From a virus (lineage: Duplodnaviria; Heunggongvirae; Uroviricota; Caudoviricetes), in IMG/VR virus record IMGVR_UViG_2534681697_000019: a stretch of 6,563 bases of DNA, one strand, 5' to 3'. The position numbers were made by a program, and so were the translations under genes. Within the stretch, counting starts at the first letter, position 1. Every line of letters begins with the position of its first letter. This document shows positions 1 to 6,563 of this stretch, one piece after another. The notes under the pieces were generated by a model. The model was not told where the DNA came from, did no database searches, and saw only the letters and a list, made by a program, of their open reading frames with translations.

Positions 1-228
1 GGGAAGTTTGTTGCTTATGATTATGCAGCATGGCTAAACCCCGGATTTAAATATGCAGCCTATAAAGTCCTGGATGACTACTTCACCGGAGAACTTCAGC
101 ATCGCAACAGATTAAGTGCGCAGCTCAATATGAAGTGTCATGAGTTTGATCAGAAAAAAGATATGGCGAGCTTCTGTGGACAAGGGCTGGCGGCATGGCG
201 CTATACGAAGCCAGTGTTGGTCTCTTAG
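1..228 (+). CDS. 3' portion of a phage gene whose 5' end lies outside the window; possibly KilA-N/antirepressor-like
   Basis: Frame 1 is open from the window edge to TAG at 226-228 (GKFVAYDYAAWLNPGFKYAAYKVLDDYF...). The AAWLNPGF-type motif resembles the conserved A-WLSPEF region I recall from KilA-N domains. Family assignment is from memory only. Confidence 0.35.
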   Translation, partial: GKFVAYDYAAWLNPGFKYAAYKVLDDYFTGELQHRNRLSAQLNMKCHEFDQKKDMASFCGQGLAAWRYTKPVLVS

Positions 229-278
229 ATTCACACCCTGGCTAACCAGCTGCAGATAACGATCCCCGGGCTTCCGGG

Positions 279-536
279 ATGAGTGATCGTGTCATTGAAT
301 GCGCCTCCAGAGCGGGGCGCGACTTCTCAGAGTTCATGAAAGGCGAGAAGGGCATGATGGAAGCATTGGCCTCGGTGGATGAGTTTGGCGAGCAGCTGCG
401 CCTCAACGGCTGTGTCAATCATCACTTTGTTAGCTACATGATGCGGAACTCGATCATGCAGGCATTCATGGACATGGCAAAAGCCGAGAGGAAAGAAGAG
501 CGCCGGCGTAAGCGAGCGGAAGCAAAAGCGAAGTAG
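279..536 (+). CDS. hypothetical small phage protein (85 aa) with a strongly basic Lys/Arg-rich C-terminal tail
   Basis: ATG-initiated ORF with coding-like codon usage, lying between two same-strand phage genes. No family recognised. The preceding RBS is weak. Confidence 0.4.
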   Translation: MSDRVIECASRAGRDFSEFMKGEKGMMEALASVDEFGEQLRLNGCVNHHFVSYMMRNSIMQAFMDMAKAERKEERRRKRAEAKAK

Positions 537-637
537 CCATTACAAAGCCCATCTACGGGTGGGCTTGATAATGGCTTATACCCTACACGGGATAACTTAA
601 CTGATATCCCTTTTAACGGATAAACGGAGCACAAATA

Positions 638-1111
638 ATGGCAAAGCTCACCGACAAACAAGAGCTGTTTGCCCGTGAGTACCTGAAAGATCTGAACGGC
701 ACACAGGCAGCTATCAGGGCGGGCTACAGCGAGAAGACCGCCAATGAGCAGGCATCTCGATTATTAGCAAATGTTAATGTTCAAAAATTCGTTGCTGAAC
801 TTAAATCCGCCCGCGTTGAGCAGACGGGTATAGATGCCGCCTATGTTCTTCGTAGATTGGTTGAAATCGACCAGATGGATGTGCTCGACATTCTCCTGCA
901 AAACGGTGAGCTAAAGCCCATTAAAGACTGGCCTAAGGTATGGCGCACAACGCTATCAGGAATGGATGTCGTGGAGATGGTATCCGCAGATAGCGCCGCA
1001 CTTCTGAAGAAAATCAAATGGCCTGATAAGGTTAAAAACCTTGAGTTGCTTGGGCGTCATGTTTCTGTTCAGGCGTTTAAAGACAACGTCAAAAATGAAG
1101 TGACTGGCTGA
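638..1111 (+). CDS. phage terminase small subunit (Terminase_2/P27-like), native 3' end replaced by the IS
   Basis: GGAG about 7 nt upstream of ATG 638. The N-terminus MAKLTDKQELFAREYLKDLNGTQAAIRAGYSEKTA is the characteristic HTH start of Terminase_2-family small subunits. The stop TGA at 1109-1111 is the first three bases of the IS left inverted repeat, so the true C-terminus is missing. Confidence 0.75.
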   Translation: MAKLTDKQELFAREYLKDLNGTQAAIRAGYSEKTANEQASRLLANVNVQKFVAELKSARVEQTGIDAAYVLRRLVEIDQMDVLDILLQNGELKPIKDWPKVWRTTLSGMDVVEMVSADSAALLKKIKWPDKVKNLELLGRHVSVQAFKDNVKNEVTG

Positions 1112-1172
1112 GGTAGCCTGAGTTTAACGGACACTCCTTCCTGAAATAGAATGGCATCAGAAGGAGCTAATA

Positions 1173-1475
1173 ATGAGCAGAAAAACCCAACGTTACTCTA
1201 AAGAGTTCAAAGCCGAAGCTGTCAGAACGGTTCTTGAAAATCAACTTTCGATCAGTGAAGGCGCTTCCCGATTATCCCTTCCTGAAGGCACTTTAGGACA
1301 ATGGGTTACCGCCGCCAGAAAAGGGCTCGGTACTCCTGGTTCCCGCACGGTGGCTGAACTGGAATCTGAAATTCTGCAACTGCGTAAGGCGTTAAATGAA
1401 GCTCGCCTTGAGCGAGATATATTAAAAAAAGCAACAGCGTATTTTGCACAGGAGTCGCTGAAAAATACGCGTTAA
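1173..1475 (+). CDS. IS3-family transposase OrfA (HTH DNA-binding / leucine-zipper part), IS600-like
   Basis: 100-aa ORF with a GGAG RBS (AGAAGGAGCTAATA-ATG). Sequence is typical IS3-family OrfA with an HTH and a heptad Leu repeat (LESEILQLRKALNEARLERDIL) ending near the slippery site. Confidence 0.9.
   Translation: MSRKTQRYSKEFKAEAVRTVLENQLSISEGASRLSLPEGTLGQWVTAARKGLGTPGSRTVAELESEILQLRKALNEARLERDILKKATAYFAQESLKNTR
1424..1470 (+). other. programmed -1 ribosomal frameshift signal of the IS: A7 slippery run plus downstream stem-loop
   Basis: A_AAA_AAA at 1424-1430, with AAA AAA in the orfA zero frame, followed by G. Six nt downstream, a 9-bp stem GCGTATTTT (1437-1445) pairs with AAAATACGC (1462-1470) around a 16-nt loop. 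Confidence 0.6.
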
Positions 1476-1510
1476 TCGAACAATGGCGACAACAATTTCC
1501 CATTGAAGCG

Positions 1511-2329
1511 ATGTGTCAGGTATTTGGTGTATCCAGGAGCGGTTATTACAACTGGGTACAGCATGAACCCTCAGACAGAAAACAAAGTGATGAGCGGCTA
1601 AAACTGGAGATTAAGGTGGCACATATCCGCACTCGCGAAACATATGGAACCCGGCGGCTCCAGACGGAGCTGGCAGAGAATGGCATCATCGTTGGTCGTG
1701 ACCGACTGGCACGTCTTCGTAAGGAGCTAAGGCTACGCTGTAAGCAGAAACGCAAGTTCAGAGCGACTACGAACCCGAACCACAATCTGCCAGTTGCGCC
1801 AAATCTGCTGAACCAGACGTTCGCTCCTACAGCACCAAATCAGGTCTGGGTGGCGGACCTGACGTATGTTGCCACACAGGAGGGATGGTTGTACCTCGCT
1901 GGCATCAAAGATGTTTATACGTGCGAAATTGTCGGCTACGCCATGGGAGAGCGCATGACAAAAGAGCTGACAGGTAAAGCCCTGTTTATGGCGCTCAGGA
2001 GCCAGCGCCCACCTGCCGGGCTAATCCACCACTCTGATCGAGGTTCACAGTACTGCGCATACGATTACCGGGTCATACAGGAGCAGTTTGGTCTGAAAAC
2101 ATCAATGTCGCGTAAAGGTAACTGTTACGACAACGCTCCGATGGAAAGCTTCTGGGGAACGCTGAAAAATGAGAGCCTGAGCCACTATCGTTTTAATAAC
2201 CGGGATGAAGCCATCTCAGTAATACGGGAATACATTGAGATTTTCTACAATCGTCAGCGTCGTCACTCTCGTCTGGGGAATATCTCCCCGGCAGCCTTCA
2301 GGGAAAAATATCATCAGATGGCTGCTTAA
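1511..2329 (+). CDS. IS3-family transposase OrfB (DDE catalytic domain), expressed as an OrfAB fusion by -1 frameshifting
   Basis: 272-aa ORF in the -1 frame relative to orfA. That frame is open from the slippery site at 1427 through 1511 (…KSNSVFCTGVAEKYALIEQWRQQFPIEAMCQVFGVSRSGYY). DDE-type motifs are visible (WVADLTY, HHSDRGSQY, NAPMESFW). Confidence 0.9.
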   Translation: MCQVFGVSRSGYYNWVQHEPSDRKQSDERLKLEIKVAHIRTRETYGTRRLQTELAENGIIVGRDRLARLRKELRLRCKQKRKFRATTNPNHNLPVAPNLLNQTFAPTAPNQVWVADLTYVATQEGWLYLAGIKDVYTCEIVGYAMGERMTKELTGKALFMALRSQRPPAGLIHHSDRGSQYCAYDYRVIQEQFGLKTSMSRKGNCYDNAPMESFWGTLKNESLSHYRFNNRDEAISVIREYIEIFYNRQRRHSRLGNISPAAFREKYHQMAA

Positions 2330-2353
2330 AAAAAGAACAAATGGTAGTGTCCG

Positions 2354-2920
2354 CTATTGCCAGTACACCTCAGCTTCATCAATAATCAGAAGGGGGTTAA
2401 CACGGCCACTGGTTTCTTTACCACCACCCAGTTTTCTGCGAATGGCGCGGGTTACATTCCCCTTATTTCTTCCCGGATTATTAATTTCCAGCGCATATGC
2501 TATTTCAAGGAGGCATTCCGTTACGCTCGAATGTGCCGGAGCAAGAGTCACCATCCAGGCATTAGCTGTCCTGCGACAATATTCCCGGGCAGCAAAGGTT
2601 TTTCCGACACCCGGTACGCCAACAACGACACTGATAATCCCGAGTGAGCGCACTGTTTTAAACAGCTCATGCAAATCACAAAATGTCTGGGTCTTCACAA
2701 CACCAGGGGTACCTGACAAGTTCTGTCCCTTCTGCCAGACCTGATACCATTTCTGTAATTTGTCATGCATACCTTCGACATTACCGTTGTACTCTCCTTT
2801 ACGCAGAGCCGAGAGTGTTGCCGGAGACATTCCGGCTTCATCAGCAATATCTTCCTGAGACTTGTCGCCCTCGTTAATCAAAGCGTTAATAGTGTTGAAA
2901 ACATCATCAATATCAGTCAT
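2354..2920 (-). pseudogene. Mu B-like AAA+ transposition ATPase, truncated by the IS insertion (about 184 native residues plus 4 IS-derived codons)
   Basis: GAGG RBS 7 nt before ATG 2920. Walker A GVPGVGKT is present, and the product aligns with Mu B as I recall it (YNGNVEGMHDKLQKW against YNGDNERVSQMLQRW; ...LLIIDEA against ...LVIIDEAD). The reading frame enters the IS right end within the Walker B motif and stops at 2354-2356. No C-terminal continuation exists on the other side of the IS. Confidence 0.8.
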
Positions 2921-2964
2921 AGTATTTCCTCGGTTATTTCAAATCAGCTTTGTTTCCTTTATTT

Positions 2965-2993
2965 AACAGTCCGTTCCCGCGGACTGTTTTTTT
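2965..2993. terminator. hairpin in the A-B intergenic spacer; intrinsic-terminator-like on the + (antisense) strand
   Basis: 9-bp stem AACAGTCCG (2965-2973) pairs with CGGACTGTT (2980-2988) around a 6-nt loop, followed on the + strand by a T7 run (2987-2993). On the coding (-) strand the hairpin is followed only by the A/U-rich stretch UUAAAUAAAGG. Confidence 0.35.
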
Positions 2994-2995
2994 AT

Positions 2996-5080
2996 TCAGG
3001 CCAGCGGATCATCTTCTTCCTGCATGGCAAAAAGTTTTTGCATCCCCAGCCGGAAATCGCGTTCAAATTCTTCGTCATGCTCTTCTTCATATTCCGGTTG
3101 CTGAACTGCCACCACATTACCAACCGGGCGATAAACATTACTCAGCCAGGGTTCAGCCTGTTTGTGTTCCAGAATCTGAATACCTTCATCTTCAGCATCA
3201 CGAATTTTTTCCTCAGCGCGTTTGCGCATTCCTTTAATACGCTGCTGTTGTTTGTGATATTCAGCACTGACAGCAAAGGCTGCGCGTTTATTGCCGTTCC
3301 ATATCGCCTCACAGATAAAGCTGCCGTCCTTGCGACGTACCGTAATTCGCTCGGCGTCATGAATGTCATAACTGATAAGCACTTTGCGACCGTGTTCGTC
3401 ACGCAACTCCGGCGCGTAGTAAATATTGTTCAGCCACTGAATTTCGCAGCGTCTTACCGGTCGTTCCACCATTGGGCGGAACATGTCGCGCAGCTCAAGA
3501 TCACTCAGCCACTCAATTTCGGTGTCTTCTTCTGCCAGGCGTTTTTTTCTGAACTCTGCCGGGCTGTAATGCCGTCCGTTCGGTTTCATCGGCAGCTCAG
3601 AATGCGGGCGGTTGTTGTACCATTCCACGCCTTCACGAATAGCCTCAATAAGCTCCGCCCACGATGGCAGCTCGCGCATTGCCGCTTTCTGGCGGTCGTT
3701 CAGAGGCTTGTCCTGTTGCAGGGAGTTAAACGCTGAACGCAGATCACGGTTAAGTACACGCAACGATTCCCGGTCAGCACCCTTGCCAAAATAGGTGCGA
3801 TACCTCCTGGCTATACGCATCGGCAGTGTCCGGTTCAGGCGTTCAATAATGCCGCGTCCCTGTGGATTACCGGCAATACCGGTAGGGTGTTTAATCCCCA
3901 GGCGTGGCAGAATACCCACGACCTCTTTGTCCAGCATGTCAGCCGTTTCACCGGAACCGTTATCCGAGTAATACAGGAACGGTTTTCCGTGGTTGCGAAT
4001 GCCGTGCTGTATCGCACCGGCAACGGCGAACACGTTTTCGGCAAGGTCAAGACTCCAGCCAACAACAAACCGTGTTCCACCATCGATCACAAACGTGACT
4101 TCCGGTGAGAATGGACGCCCGTGGATCGGATGCGCACATTTCAGCTTCATACCGTGACCGTCACCAATCCAGACATAATTCACCGGCATAGCTGTCCAGT
4201 CGCGGCGGGTGAATCCTTCAAGCTGACGGTATTCACTGCCGGTAACGCGCCCTTTTTGTTTCACCACTTCCGGCAGTTTTTTCATGGCATACCGGACAAC
4301 ATCATAGGAAGGCATCACCTCCAGCATGTACGGTTCGTCCGCATGGCGACGCTGCCATTCTGCGACAAAATCCTCGTAGGCTTCTGACATGGGTCTGCCG
4401 TTCACCTAGCGATACTGCGCCAGAAATTCAGGCAGCCAGCTGATTTCTTCCGGTTTTATTTCGTCGCGTTTTCCCGGTGCCAGTAACAGCAGCCGTTCGG
4501 CGGCGTTCTGCGACTGGTTGTATTTCAGAACCCACTGGTAAAGTGGATCGCGGCTGATAGTACGATTAGCGCCACGTTTTGCATTGGCGTTAACTGCGGC
4601 CTGTTGCAGGCGCTCCGGCAGCTCACCTTTACGGGCTTTTTCAACAAGAAAGTTAATGGCTTTCAGTCGCCCGAGGTTACCGGCGCTTTCCAGCTTCAGC
4701 ACTTCCACCACCAGCGCAGCCCTTGCTTCAGATACCCGACGCTGGTTTTCGGTCAGCGCATTCAGGCGTTCTTCCATCAGTTGTGGCGAACCGCGATATG
4801 CTTCGATTGCCTGGACAGCATCAGGATTGCGTGTTTTTCTGGTAACAGCTTTCACTTCAGAAACATTGTTCTCTGTAGCCACCAACTGTGCCACATAGCG
4901 TTCACGCAGTGCCTTTTGAATAACAATAGGTAAAGAGTTTATTTCGCACTCAACAACACGTCCCTTAACCCCAGCTTTAAGACGTGTCTGCCATGACTCT
5001 TTTTTAGCTTTCTTATGCAAACCCGCAAGTGAACTAGGTAATCCACAAAATGAAGCTAATTCAGTCATTGGAACCCACAT
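2996..5080 (-). pseudogene. Mu A-like DDE transposase, interrupted by a single in-frame TAG at 4406-4408
   Basis: GGAGG RBS 4 nt before ATG 5080. N-terminus MWVPMTELASFCGLPSSLAGLHKKAKKESWQTRLKAGVKGR matches the Mu A enhancer-binding winged-helix domain as I recall it. DDE-like motifs follow the break (VWIGDGHG, YYSDNGSG, GRGIIERLN), and the C-terminal region resembles Mu A (HDAERITVRRKDGSFICEA). One frame is continuous except for the TAG (…LAQYR-TAG-VNGRPMSEAYEDF…), giving a 224-codon N-terminal segment (4409-5080) and a 469-codon C-terminal segment (2996-4405). Confidence 0.85.
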
Positions 5081-5315
5081 TTTTCCTCCGTGAGCGACGT
5101 TCATATCTGGTTGGCCAAATAACCTCTGGTTGAACTCCAATAGCTTGCGCAATAATCCCTTCTCCCTTTAAATAGGGGACTCGCAAAGTATTACCTAACG
5201 TTCTTGGCCTTAAATTATTTTCTCTCGATAAGCGAGACAAATTAGTACCACGCTTCTCAAGCTCAGCCTTGATATCAGCGGAATCCCAATCCTCACCTAA
5301 AATCACGATTAACAC
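5061..5315 (-). CDS. Ner-like DNA-binding regulator of a Mu-like phage
   Basis: Product aligns with Mu Ner as I recall it (EDWDSADIKAELEKRGTNLSRLSR...LKGEGIIAQAIGVQPEVIWPTRYE against RDWHRADVIAGLKKRKLSLSALSR...PKGEQIIANALETKPEVIWPSRYQ). There is no in-frame ATG; the start is GTG at 5315 or GTG at 5306. The gene's 3' end overlaps the transposase start by about 20 nt. Confidence 0.75.
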   Translation of the reverse strand: MLIVILGEDWDSADIKAELEKRGTNLSRLSRENNLRPRTLGNTLRVPYLKGEGIIAQAIGVQPEVIWPTRYERRSRRKNVGSND

Positions 5316-5446
5316 CCCACGCGCTTTCTATGGCAAACTCTATGACTCATGCGTGTAACTCACGAGAGTTACTCAACTGTGTGTGGTTGGAATATTAGAT
5401 ATTAACTAAGTAAATATCAACTGGTTAATTTCATTGGGAGGTTGAT
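5316..5446. promoter_or_regulatory. divergent early/repressor promoter-operator region of the Mu-like element
   Basis: On the - strand: -35 TTGATA (+ coordinates 5415-5420), 17-nt spacer, -10 TAATAT (5392-5397), directed toward ner-A-B. On the + strand: -35 TTGGAA (5387-5392), 18-nt spacer, -10 TAAATA (5411-5416), directed toward the repressor gene. Downstream of the leftward promoter lie three 13-bp-spaced TNACTCA repeats (5343, 5356, 5369) and an 18-bp palindrome GTAACTC-ACGA-GAGTTAC (5355-5372). Promoter and operator roles are inferred from position and pattern only. Confidence 0.45.
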
Positions 5447-5953
5447 ATGATCCAAGATCAAGAATGGGTGCCTGCTAGTGAACTCCTCGGTGTTGGCGGT
5501 TTACCCACATCCCTTGCAGGACTCCATAAGCGAGCAAGAAATGAGGGGTGGGAAAAACGTTCAGTTACAACACCCGGAGTTAGAGGAAGGGCCTTTGCGT
5601 ACCGATTGCAAGACTTGCCTGAACACGTCGCTGCAATTGTTAGCGGTCAGTTGCAAACAGCAACCAAACCATCAAACAAGGCCTCAAAAGCTAATGAGTT
5701 AATGAAAATAATGGATTCTCTAAGCGAACAAGAAAAAGAGATCGTGATCCATACGCTCAAACGAAAAGGTGTTGAAAAGTTGCTCGAATTTTGCAGCCAA
5801 GAAAACCAAGAGTTGATTAGTTTAACGGGTATTCGAAGATTAGCTGCTTTAAGCCTAAATAACCTGTCAGAACAAAAGGTTAGAGAGATTTTGGCGGGAA
5901 ATGAAGCTGAGGCCGATCTCATCCAACTAACCAACAAGGCAGTTAGCATATAA
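5447..5953 (+). CDS. Mu c-like phage repressor
   Basis: GGGAGG RBS 5 nt upstream of ATG 5447. The N-terminal domain EWVPASELLGVGGLPTSLAGLHKRARNEGWEKR...GVRGR is visibly paralogous to the transposase N-terminus encoded at 5080 (WVPMTELASFCGLPSSLAGLHKKAKKESWQTR...GVKGR), the arrangement known for Mu repressor and Mu A. It is transcribed divergently from ner-A-B, toward the prophage end. Confidence 0.8.
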   Translation: MIQDQEWVPASELLGVGGLPTSLAGLHKRARNEGWEKRSVTTPGVRGRAFAYRLQDLPEHVAAIVSGQLQTATKPSNKASKANELMKIMDSLSEQEKEIVIHTLKRKGVEKLLEFCSQENQELISLTGIRRLAALSLNNLSEQKVREILAGNEAEADLIQLTNKAVSI

Positions 5954-6047
5954 TCAGCTAGCTGTGCTTAACTTACTTGGTCCATTTCTACAACTTCTGA
6001 TAAGCTAGTTTTAAAAGCCTTTAAAAGGTCAAAATAAACAAGACGCT

Positions 6048-6180
6048 TTATCTTGAATGTTTTATTGTTCTGAACAAACTAAACGGCCCTTGCCCATTTT
6101 ATCTTGAATACAACTAGTAGCTAAGTTATTGAATCCAACCAAATCCCGTCTTTTTTAATCTCTTCCCGGTTATCTTGAAT
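6048..6180. repeat. three direct copies of TTATCTTGAAT: candidate transposase-binding sites at the Mu-like left end
   Basis: Exact 11-mers at 6048-6058, 6099-6109 and 6170-6180, with conserved flanks (cTTTATCTTGAATg, tTTTATCTTGAATa, gGTTATCTTGAATa), plus a degenerate copy GTTATTGAAT at 6125-6134. They lie 14-146 bp inside the inferred terminus, comparable to the L1-L3 layout of Mu attL. Confidence 0.55.
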
Positions 6181-6197
6181 AAATTACCTAGTCATAG

Positions 6198-6461
6198 GAT
6201 CTACATTTTCTCGCAAGTCGAATGGATACCTCAAAGCTGGATTTGATTCTGGTCGAAGGGTTTAAGCATGAAGAGATCGCAAAGATTGTGCTGTTTCGCG
6301 ATGGAGCCGGACATCGACCGGAAGAATTAGTGATAGACAGACATGTTATTGCTGTAGCCAGTGATGTGTCACTTAATCTTGATGTCGCGTTACTGGATAT
6401 TAATGATGTTGGGGGGCTGGCTGATTTTGTGGTGGAGTGGATGCAAAATCAGGACGGATAA
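6198..6461 (+). pseudogene. mobB: 3' fragment of molybdopterin-guanine dinucleotide biosynthesis protein B gene, 5' part removed by the prophage insertion
   Basis: Translation DLHFLASRMDTSKLDLILVEGFKHEEIAKIVLFRDGAGHRPEELVIDRHVIAVASDV...DFVVEWMQNQDG matches the C-terminal half of E. coli MobB as I recall it. The P-loop N-terminal half is absent, and homology stops at about 6198 where the Mu-like end begins. Stop codon TAA at 6459-6461. Confidence 0.8.
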
Positions 6462-6525
6462 GCAAGAGTAGGCTGGATCAGACGCAGCCAGCGTCGCATC
6501 CGACCTTTTTCTGCACCAGCGCAAA

Positions 6526-6551
6526 AAGGCCCAGTCTTCCGACTGGGCCTT
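6526..6551 (-). terminator. GC-rich hairpin intrinsic terminator, probably bidirectional
   Basis: 11-bp stem AAGGCCCAGTC (6526-6536) pairs with GACTGGGCCTT (6541-6551) around a 4-nt loop TTCC. On the - strand the stem is followed by TTTGCGC, giving a T5 run with the stem end. On the + strand it lies about 65 nt after the mobB stop and is followed by the less U-rich CTGCTTAATTT. Confidence 0.6.
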
Positions 6552-6563
6552 CTGCTTAATTTG

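What the first reader, a model, noticed from the sequence alone, without database searches (positions are those of the whole stretch)
6048..6197. Mu-like prophage end inserted in mobB, marked by three TTATCTTGAAT terminal repeats
MobB homology (lacking its P-loop half) begins abruptly at about 6198, immediately after ...CCTAGTCA. The 200 bp inside this point carry three exact 11-bp direct repeats with conserved flanks. Position and number mimic the L1-L3 transposase-binding sites of Mu attL, but the sequence is unlike the Mu end consensus as I recall it, so this looks like a distinct Mu-like lineage with its own end-recognition sequence. The junction is only resolved to within a few bp.
Basis: partly seen in the sequence, partly recalled or inferred. 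Interest (0 to 1): 0.5.

Follow-up and report, generated by a model that had tools for sequence, protein, structure and literature searches.

The report
Mu-like prophage end with transposase sites
This is the left end of a decayed Mu-like (Sp18-related) transposable prophage inserted in the gene mobB, and its three repeats are very probably the sites where the phage's own transposase binds; it is an ordinary element whose end-recognition sequence differs from that of phage Mu.

Summary
TTATCTTGAAT occurs exactly three times in the window (6048, 6099, 6170), all within the last 150 bp of a Mu-like prophage.

The junction is now exact. The phage ends at 6196 (…CCTAGTCATA) and mobB codon ~88 resumes at 6197. 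Over 15 independent insertions of related prophages stop at this same base.

In complete relatives the motif occurs three times at each end, inverted between ends. Core starts are 17/88/139 (left) and 17/39/74 (right), matching the register of Mu L1, R1 and R2. The core is invariant where the flanks are unalignable.

Close relatives (Yersinia phage vB_YpM_5, Sp18-like Mu_JNE082796) carry a different repeat, TTTGATAC, at the same positions. Across 12 elements the repeat type tracks one ~75-residue helix-turn-helix-like segment of the transposase, placed where MuA subdomain Iβ lies. It does not track the repressor or Iα module.

Corrections: the termini are 5'-TA…TA-3', not TG…CA. The target duplication in this family is 4 bp, not 5 bp. 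The window's copy is dead (transposase nonsense codon, MuB cut by IS3).

Verdict: new member of a known kind, modest interest.

The parts
6195..6196 (+). Terminal dinucleotide TA of the prophage left end. The last phage base is 6196.
   Evidence: Homology to the RM9088 prophage runs to 6196 and mobB homology starts at 6197. Seven E. coli insertions, and then 12 further loci, all end …GTCATA before diverging.
6170..6191 (-). L1: the outermost transposase-binding site, positions 6-27 from the end. The invariant core is 6170-6180 (TTATCTTGAAT on +, ATTCAAGATAA read inward).
   Evidence: Exact repeat. The core starts at position 17 in all 13 distinct left ends, and at position 17 of the right end too. 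This is the same register as Mu L1/R1.
6099..6109 (-). L2 core (positions 88-98 from the end)
   Evidence: Exact repeat. The position is fixed at 88 in 13 distinct left ends while the flanks diverge.
6048..6058 (-). L3 core (positions 139-149 from the end)
   Evidence: Exact repeat. The position is 139 or 140 in 12 of 13 distinct left ends. In the remaining one it is replaced by unrelated sequence that looks to me like an IS1 end.
6128..6169 (-). L1-L2 spacer segment resembling Mu nucleotides ~30-71. In Mu this is the L1-L2 spacer; that it is where HU binds is my recollection.
   Evidence: Alignment of the window's left end with the Mu left end. I count about 29 of 42 identical bases by eye. 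HU binding to the Mu L end is stated in PMC3145075. A role here is inferred.
5447..5953 (+). c-type repressor gene, transcribed toward the end
   Evidence: Pfam HTH_Tnp_Mu_1, E = 5.6e-9. 95% identical to the RM9088 repressor.
5061..5315 (-). Ner-like regulator gene
   Evidence: Pfam HTH_35, E = 9e-27
2996..5080 (-). MuA-type transposase pseudogene, with an in-frame stop at 4406-4408 where RM9088 has Gln225
   Evidence: ORFs. Pfam HTH_Tnp_Mu_1 and Mu-transpos_C. Aligned with the intact RM9088 protein. 24% identical to MuA over the full length.
4511..4738 (-). Codons ~115-190 of the transposase: the helix-turn-helix-like segment that co-varies with the end repeat (Iβ-like module)
2373..2920 (-). 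MuB-type ATPase gene, 3' part lost. The 188-aa open reading frame (2354-2920) runs on into the adjoining IS3 copy.
   Evidence: Pfam AAA_22 and a 188-aa ORF, against 316-317 aa in relatives.
1109..2372 (+). IS3-family element, probably IS3 by my recollection. It joins the prophage remnant to an unrelated lambdoid prophage piece (1-1108).
   Evidence: orfA/orfB ORFs. A 1264-bp block matches L032 and L037 at 99.8-99.9%. The left flank is annotated in E. coli as KilA-N and terminase small subunit.
6197..6461 (+). 3' half of mobB (codons ~88-175), the insertion target

Best explanation
Window 6048-6196 is the left end (attL) of a Mu-like transposable prophage. The phage belongs to the family that includes E. 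coli Sp18-like phages and Yersinia phage vB_YpM_5, and it is inserted in codon ~88 of mobB.

The three ATTCAAGATAA cores (read inward from the end) are the L1, L2 and L3 binding sites of the phage's own MuA-type transposase. By analogy with Mu, transposase monomers bound at three sites on each end pair the two ends in a transpososome. They nick at the terminal 3'-A and join it to target DNA, here with a 4-bp stagger.

Specificity for this core most likely resides in an Iβ-like helix-turn-helix segment, residues ~115-190. This segment has been exchanged as a module between sub-lineages together with the end repeats.

Shown: the exact terminus, the number, position and conservation of the sites at both ends, the 4-bp duplications, and the co-variation.

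Inferred: physical binding, which domain reads the core, and a role for HU at the spacer.

The copy in the window is an immobile remnant. It is also inherited, because the same junction is found in other assemblies.
For: 1. **Mu gene order and MuA/MuB/c/Ner homologues** lie next to the end.
2. **The same terminal base** is seen in more than 15 independent insertions at unrelated loci, including nrfA, narI, fliH and a yhfX-like alanine racemase gene.
3. **Both ends carry the motif.** In the complete prophages of RM9088, STEC346 and VL40 the core occurs three times at each end, inverted between ends. Core starts are 17/88/139-140 and 17/39/74. The STEC346 locus has six exact sites against 0.21 expected by chance.
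4. **Phylogenetic footprint.** Across 13 distinct left ends and 3 right ends, TTCAAGATA is almost invariant (one right end has a single C-to-T change in R1) while the flanks approach zero information.
5. **Same register as Mu.** L1, R1 and R2 of Mu occupy 6-27, 6-27 and 28-49, and R1-R2 are 22 bp apart in both.
6. **Co-variation.** Elements with ATTCAAGATAA are 74-100% identical to the A-type reference in residues 115-190 and 36-39% identical to the B-type reference. Elements with TTTGATAC show the reverse (33-47% and 57-100%). The flanking segments are 58-100% identical in all 12 (at least 80% in 11 of them). The Iα segment and the repressors assort independently.
7. **Prediction tested.** A Salmonella transposase with an A-type segment has three ATTCAAGATA repeats. 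E. coli and metagenome transposases with B-type segments have three TTTGATAC repeats.
8. **Domain placement.** The segment lies between Iα and the catalytic core. Its model matches MuA in the Mu transpososome and the isolated Iβ subdomain. In the MuA-like transposase TnsB, Iβ contacts the end-distal part of the site, positions 20-30 (PMC9371665). This fits a core at 17-27.
Against: - No binding experiment exists.
- The sequence does not match the Mu 22-bp consensus, and the transposase is only 24% identical to MuA.
- The 12 elements are related, so the co-variation is not 12 independent events.
- The termini are TA and the duplication is 4 bp, so the details of Mu chemistry may not transfer.
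- The right end and the 5' half of mobB of this particular insertion were not seen.
Confidence: 0.85

Rival explanations
1. The three repeats are operator-like sites for the phage repressor (or for the homologous Iα domain of the transposase) rather than end-binding sites. They would serve immunity or enhancer function.
For: The repressor gene ends only about 95 bp from the innermost repeat. Both the repressor and the transposase N-terminus carry the Mu DNA-binding domain PF02316.
Against: - Among elements with the identical core, the repressors are only 26-46% identical between immunity types, and the Iα segments are 29-40% identical to the RM9088 type. Some are closer to those of TTTGATAC elements.
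- The same core is present three times at the right end, about 35 kb from the immunity region.
- In Mu the operators lie between c and ner, not outside c (my recollection).
Confidence: 0.05
2. The repeats are bound by a host protein (an IHF-, Fis- or HU-type architectural factor), or are merely structural, with transposase recognition residing elsewhere in the end.
For: Mu ends do use host HU, and the L1-L2 spacer resembles that of Mu.
Against: - A host-factor site would not switch to a different sequence (TTTGATAC) in phages of the same hosts, in step with a transposase segment.
- The number, orientation and spacing copy the Mu transposase sites.
- By my recollection of the IHF consensus, the core does not resemble it. 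I did not scan for it.
Confidence: 0.05
3. Chance repeats, or a mobB duplication or rearrangement, rather than a transposition junction.
For: Only one end is in the window. The prophage is rearranged by IS3.
Against: - Three exact 11-mers are rare by chance.
- The identical terminus is found at many unrelated loci.
- The identical mobB junction is found in 7 assemblies.
- mobB identity starts abruptly at a base that fits an uninterrupted mobB.
Confidence: 0.02

Closest known systems
Phage Mu attL/attR with MuA-binding sites L1-L3 and R1-R3
   Same: - Three sites per end.
- L1 and R1 lie at positions 6-27 and R2 at 28-49, with the inner half of each site the best conserved.
- A wide L1-L2 gap whose sequence resembles that of Mu.
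- The same neighbouring genes (c, ner, A, B).
- A transposase with an Iα domain, a DDE core and the Mu-transpos_C domain.
   Different: - No match to the Mu site consensus.
- The transposase is 24% identical to MuA.
- Termini are TA rather than CA.
- The duplication is 4 bp rather than 5 bp.
- R3 is in direct orientation, whereas the Mu R3 sequence reads inverted.
- L2 and L3 start at 88 and 139 rather than about 111 and 151 (Mu facts from PMC3145075).
Sp18-like Mu-like phages of E. coli (Mu_JNE082796 in LC727881.1; PMC10132054) and Yersinia phage vB_YpM_5 (MT374853.1)
   Same: - The transposase from residue ~200 onward is mostly 78-100% identical in 50-residue windows, falling off in the last ~75 residues.
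- The same right-end register (cores at 18/40/75).
- A 4-bp duplication, annotated by the depositors of LC727881.1.
- vB_YpM_5 shares the outer terminal sequences TATGA…GGTAA and TAAAGCGCGCAAAAT.
   Different: - Their repeats are TTTGATAC, not ATTCAAGATAA.
- Transposase residues 115-190 are only 33-39% identical.
- The Sp18-like left end starts TG, not TA.
- No record in the deposited-phage collection matches the window's 242-bp end.
Tn7 / CRISPR-associated transposon TnsB binding sites
   Same: - Several 22-bp transposase sites, unevenly spaced at each end.
- MuA-like Iβ and Iγ domains.
- Modular end recognition (PMC9371665).
   Different: - An unrelated element with an 8-bp terminal sequence and a 5-bp duplication.
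- No sequence relationship to TnsB was tested here.

Membership tests
Mu-like transposable phage end (attL) | Early-region gene order next to the end: repressor pointing outward, then ner, transposase A and ATPase B pointing inward | tested here: met
   ORFs and Pfam hits. The same order is annotated in the relatives.
Mu-like transposable phage end (attL) | MuA-type DDE transposase (Iα DNA-binding domain, rve-like core, Mu-transpos_C) | tested here: met
   Pfam PF02316 and PF09299. 1tns E = 4.4e-9 for residues 1-61. Full-length alignment to MuA at 24% identity.
Mu-like transposable phage end (attL) | The same terminal nucleotide in independent insertions at unrelated chromosomal sites | tested here: met
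   All junctions end …GTCATA.
Mu-like transposable phage end (attL) | Several copies of one repeat near both ends, inverted between ends | tested here: met
   Three plus three copies in RM9088, STEC346 and VL40. The window itself holds only the left end.
Mu-like transposable phage end (attL) | Short target-site duplication flanking the element | tested here: met
   CTTA (RM9088, checked against K-12 nrfA), ATTC (STEC346) and TTCA (VL40). Not testable for the window's own insertion.
Mu-like transposable phage end (attL) | The transposase physically binds the repeats | not testable with these tools
   Only indirect evidence: co-variation with transposase residues 115-190.
Phage Mu proper (Muvirus mu, D108) | Termini 5'-TG…CA-3' | tested here: not met
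   Both ends are 5'-TA…TA-3'.
Phage Mu proper (Muvirus mu, D108) | 5-bp target duplication | tested here: not met
   4 bp in three of three complete relatives, and in the depositors' annotation of LC727881.1.
   Side-by-side end sequences show no such motif in the window's sites.
Sp18-like / vB_YpM_5-like Mu-like phages | Closely related transposase core and the same end architecture | tested here: met
   Mostly 78-100% identity in 50-residue windows from residue ~200 to ~625; same right-end register; 4-bp duplication.
Sp18-like / vB_YpM_5-like Mu-like phages | TTTGATAC end repeats with the matching B-type segment at residues 115-190 | tested here: not met
   The window has ATTCAAGATAA repeats and an A-type segment that is 38% identical to the B-type reference.

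The most novel reading that the evidence does not exclude
Within one family of otherwise nearly identical Mu-type transposases, nature has exchanged a ~75-residue Iβ-like recognition module together with the six cognate end sites. This gives two (or more) orthogonal transposase/end pairs that also work with a 3'-TA terminus and a 4-bp stagger. If true, it is a ready-made natural specificity swap. It could be used to study how MuA-type transposases read their ends and set the target stagger, and to build orthogonal mini-Mu tools.
Probability: 0.6. Interest if true: 0.4.

Novelty: new member of a known kind. Interest (0 to 1): 0.3.

Why it matters
For annotation, this fixes the prophage boundary to the base and explains why mobB is truncated in this lineage. 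mobB is inactivated by an old, inherited insertion.

For transposition biology, the family offers a natural comparison. Transposases of the two repeat types are mostly 78-100% identical from about residue 200 up to the last ~75 residues. They differ in one small DNA-binding segment and in the sequence of all six end sites. Their termini (TA) and target stagger (4 bp) also differ from those of Mu.

None of this changes the known picture of how Mu-type elements work.

Tried and rejected
- **Deposited phages.** A sensitive blastn search (11-base words) of the 242-bp end against 50,697 phage records gave no match.
- **IMG/VR.** Exact searches for the window's mobB junction, and for the predicted right-end/mobB junction, gave nothing. 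The source genome's right end was therefore not found.
- **STEC388 and FDAARGOS_943.** These prophages are cut by IS elements or recombined, so they gave no duplication data.
- **L037 copy in zraP.** Its two flanks lie about 117 bp apart in K-12. This is an adjacent deletion and says nothing about the duplication.
- **06-00048.** Its right end is a genuine Mu end, so it is a hybrid and was excluded.
- **Sequence search of solved structures.** It mapped only Iα and the catalytic core, not Iβ or Iγ.
- **Rfam.** Nothing credible in 5300-6563.
- **Literature.** Searches found no description of these ends, and two Mu reviews or structure papers were not held.
- **Mu half-sites.** I could not confirm from held papers which half-site MuA Iβ contacts. 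I used the TnsB structure paper as a proxy.

Full report
**What is in the window.** The ORF list and Pfam scans show the following features, left to right:
- a lambdoid prophage piece with a terminase small subunit (1-1108);
- an IS3-family element (1109-2372);
- a truncated MuB-type ATPase gene (to 2920, − strand);
- a MuA-type transposase split by an in-frame stop (2996-5080, −);
- a Ner-like gene (5061-5315, −);
- a c-type repressor gene (5447-5953, +);
- about 240 bp of non-coding DNA;
- the 3' half of mobB (6197-6461, +).

This is the Mu left-end gene order, with the end pointing right. In the window's transposase a stop codon replaces Gln225 of the intact relative, so this copy is dead.

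**The observation.** TTATCTTGAAT occurs exactly at 6048, 6099 and 6170 and nowhere else. It is the only 11-mer present three times. Such an event appeared in 9 of 2000 first-order Markov simulations.

**The junction.**
- Every one of 5426 complete E. coli genomes matches the mobB part from window 6197 onward. None holds the whole query.
- Aligned with DH5α mobB, identity starts at G6197, which is codon ~88 of 175.
- A 94.7%-identical prophage in E. coli RM9088, inserted at the 3' end of nrfA, matches up to 6196.
- Seven E. coli insertions at different loci end …GTCATA and then diverge. So do 12 further loci from Shigella flexneri SFBU1023, strain ECMA0423 and IMG/VR contigs.
- The left end is therefore …CCTAGTCATA, with 6196 as the last base.
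- The identical mobB junction is present in seven NCBI assemblies. One of them is 99.98% identical to window 1212-6563. The insertion is therefore old and inherited.

**Both ends.**
- In RM9088 the motif, allowing one mismatch, occurs at seven places in 46 kb against 0.51 expected. Three are at the left end and three, inverted, at the right end. One is a stray copy inside a tail-fibre-region gene (DUF4376).
- STEC346 and VL40 have exactly six TATCTTGAA sites each, three per end.
- Read inward, the left end is TATGACTAGGTAATTT-ATTCAAGATAA… and the right end is TAAAGCGCGCAAAATT-ATTCAAGATAG…
- Core starts are 17, 88 and 139/140 on the left, and 17, 39 and 74 on the right, all in the same orientation relative to the end.
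- Across 13 distinct left ends and 3 right ends, TTCAAGATA is almost invariant (one right end has a single C-to-T change in its R1 core) and the positions are fixed. Sequences between the sites are in places unalignable.

**Comparison with Mu** (the Mu sequence was fetched; the Mu site coordinates are my recollection).
- L1 and R1 of Mu occupy 6-27 and R2 occupies 28-49. The cores here fall in the inner half of the same registers, and R1-R2 are 22 bp apart in both.
- The right terminus resembles that of Mu (TAAAGCG-CGCA against TGAAGCGGCGCA).
- The L1-L2 spacer (window 6128-6169) is about 70% identical to Mu nucleotides ~30-71, by my count.
- The differences are these. The site sequence is unrelated to the Mu consensus. 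R3 is direct here but reads inverted in Mu. L2 and L3 lie closer to the end. The transposase is 24% identical to MuA.

**Termini and duplication.**
- Both termini are 5'-TA…TA-3'.
- The left end aligns without gaps to the Sp18-like left end TGTAACCAGG…, so position 2 is a true G-to-A difference.
- The flanks give 4-bp duplications: CTTA in RM9088 (K-12 nrfA reads GGCTTAACAG), ATTC in STEC346 and TTCA in VL40.
- The depositors of LC727881.1 annotated a 4-bp 'duplication due to insertion' for the related Mu_JNE082796.
- Mu cleaves at CA and makes 5-bp duplications (PMC3145075).

**What reads the repeats.**
- Yersinia phage vB_YpM_5 (80% identical transposase) and Mu_JNE082796 (73%) carry three TTTGATAC repeats per end. 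These start at 18/113-122/164-165 on the left and 18/40/75 on the right. PMC10132054 describes the Mu-like phages of that study (which I take to include Mu_JNE082796) as similar to Sp18.
- A sliding comparison of transposases shows three zones:
  - residues 1-60 (Iα) vary among elements that share the same repeat;
  - residues ~115-190 are 74-100% identical within a repeat type and 33-47% identical between types;
  - residues 96-114 and 191-275 are 58-100% identical in all 12 elements compared (at least 80% in 11 of them), and in the eight full-length transposases conservation continues (mostly 78-100% in 50-residue windows) until the last ~75 residues.
- The repressors of ATTCAAGATAA elements are only 26-46% identical across types.
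- I then used partial transposases found in the protein database as a test. The A-type segment from Salmonella (P0007) goes with three ATTCAAGATA repeats spaced 71 and 52 bp apart. The B-type segments (P0010, P0025, P0038) go with three TTTGATAC repeats.
- The ends and this segment thus stay together while the immunity region between them is exchanged.

**Which domain.**
- Sequence search of solved structures maps only Iα (1tns, residues 1-61) and the catalytic core.
- An AlphaFold model of window residues 66-224 was built from a 29-sequence alignment (mean pLDDT 72.9, about 90 over residues ~50-100 of the model).
- Foldseek against the PDB gave no hit.
- In the MuA-like transposase TnsB, Iγ and the linker contact positions 5-19 of the site and Iβ contacts positions 20-30 (PMC9371665). 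A core at 17-27 read by an Iβ-like module fits this geometry.
- The conserved Iγ-like part would then go with the outer terminal sequences, which vB_YpM_5 shares with the window's lineage. This last step is inference.

**Verdict.** This is the left end of a Mu-like prophage in mobB, with three transposase-binding repeats of a non-Mu sequence. It belongs to a known kind of element, and its relatives are already in databases. I found no paper describing these ends. The points worth recording are the exact boundary, the TA termini, the 4-bp duplication, and the natural exchange of an Iβ-like recognition module together with its sites.

Noticed in passing
L024 3721 (IMGVR_UViG_2636415416_000003); window equivalent 6368: A second, independent insertion of a 98%-identical phage left end in mobB. 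It lies 171 bp downstream of the window's junction and in the same orientation. Two hits in one ~530-bp gene among about 17 insertion sites may point to a local hotspot.
   Followed up: partly
L014 (E. coli 06-00048, NZ_CP015229.1), right end near 35300: This prophage has the ATTCAAGATAA-type left end and an A-type transposase, but a genuine phage Mu right end (…CGTGCGCCGCTTCA) and no target duplication. It is probably a recombinant of two resident Mu-like prophages, and it should be unable to transpose.
   Followed up: partly
L003, L012, L013 junctions; LC727881.1 35673-35676 and 75645-75648: This phage family makes 4-bp target duplications and uses 3'-TA termini. Sp18-like left ends keep CA, read as TG on the inward strand. 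Mu makes 5-bp duplications and has CA termini.
   Followed up: yes
window 1-2372: An IS3-family copy (1109-2372) joins the truncated MuB gene to an unrelated lambdoid prophage fragment (KilA-N, terminase small subunit). The near-identical assembly CP026875.1 has a different left junction, so this region is rearranged between strains.
   Followed up: partly
window 4406-4408: The transposase has an in-frame stop where the intact relative has Gln225. The prophage is a fixed, immobile remnant.
   Followed up: yes
L037 1778 and 10750 (GCA_002950035.1, CP026877.1): A 9-kb, IS-riddled copy of the same phage sits in zraP. Its two flanks are about 117 bp apart in K-12. This means an adjacent deletion rather than a simple insertion.
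   Followed up: yes
L018 and L020 left ends, about position 135 from the end: In one Shigella flexneri / ECMA0423 copy the L3 site is replaced by sequence that looks to me like an IS1 end (GGTAATGACTCCAACTTACTGATAG).
   Followed up: no
window 6462-6563: Downstream of mobB there is a REP-like palindromic sequence and a terminator-like hairpin (GGCCCAGTC…GACTGGGCC). Extra matches elsewhere in E. coli genomes may come from this stretch. This rests on direct reading.
   Followed up: no
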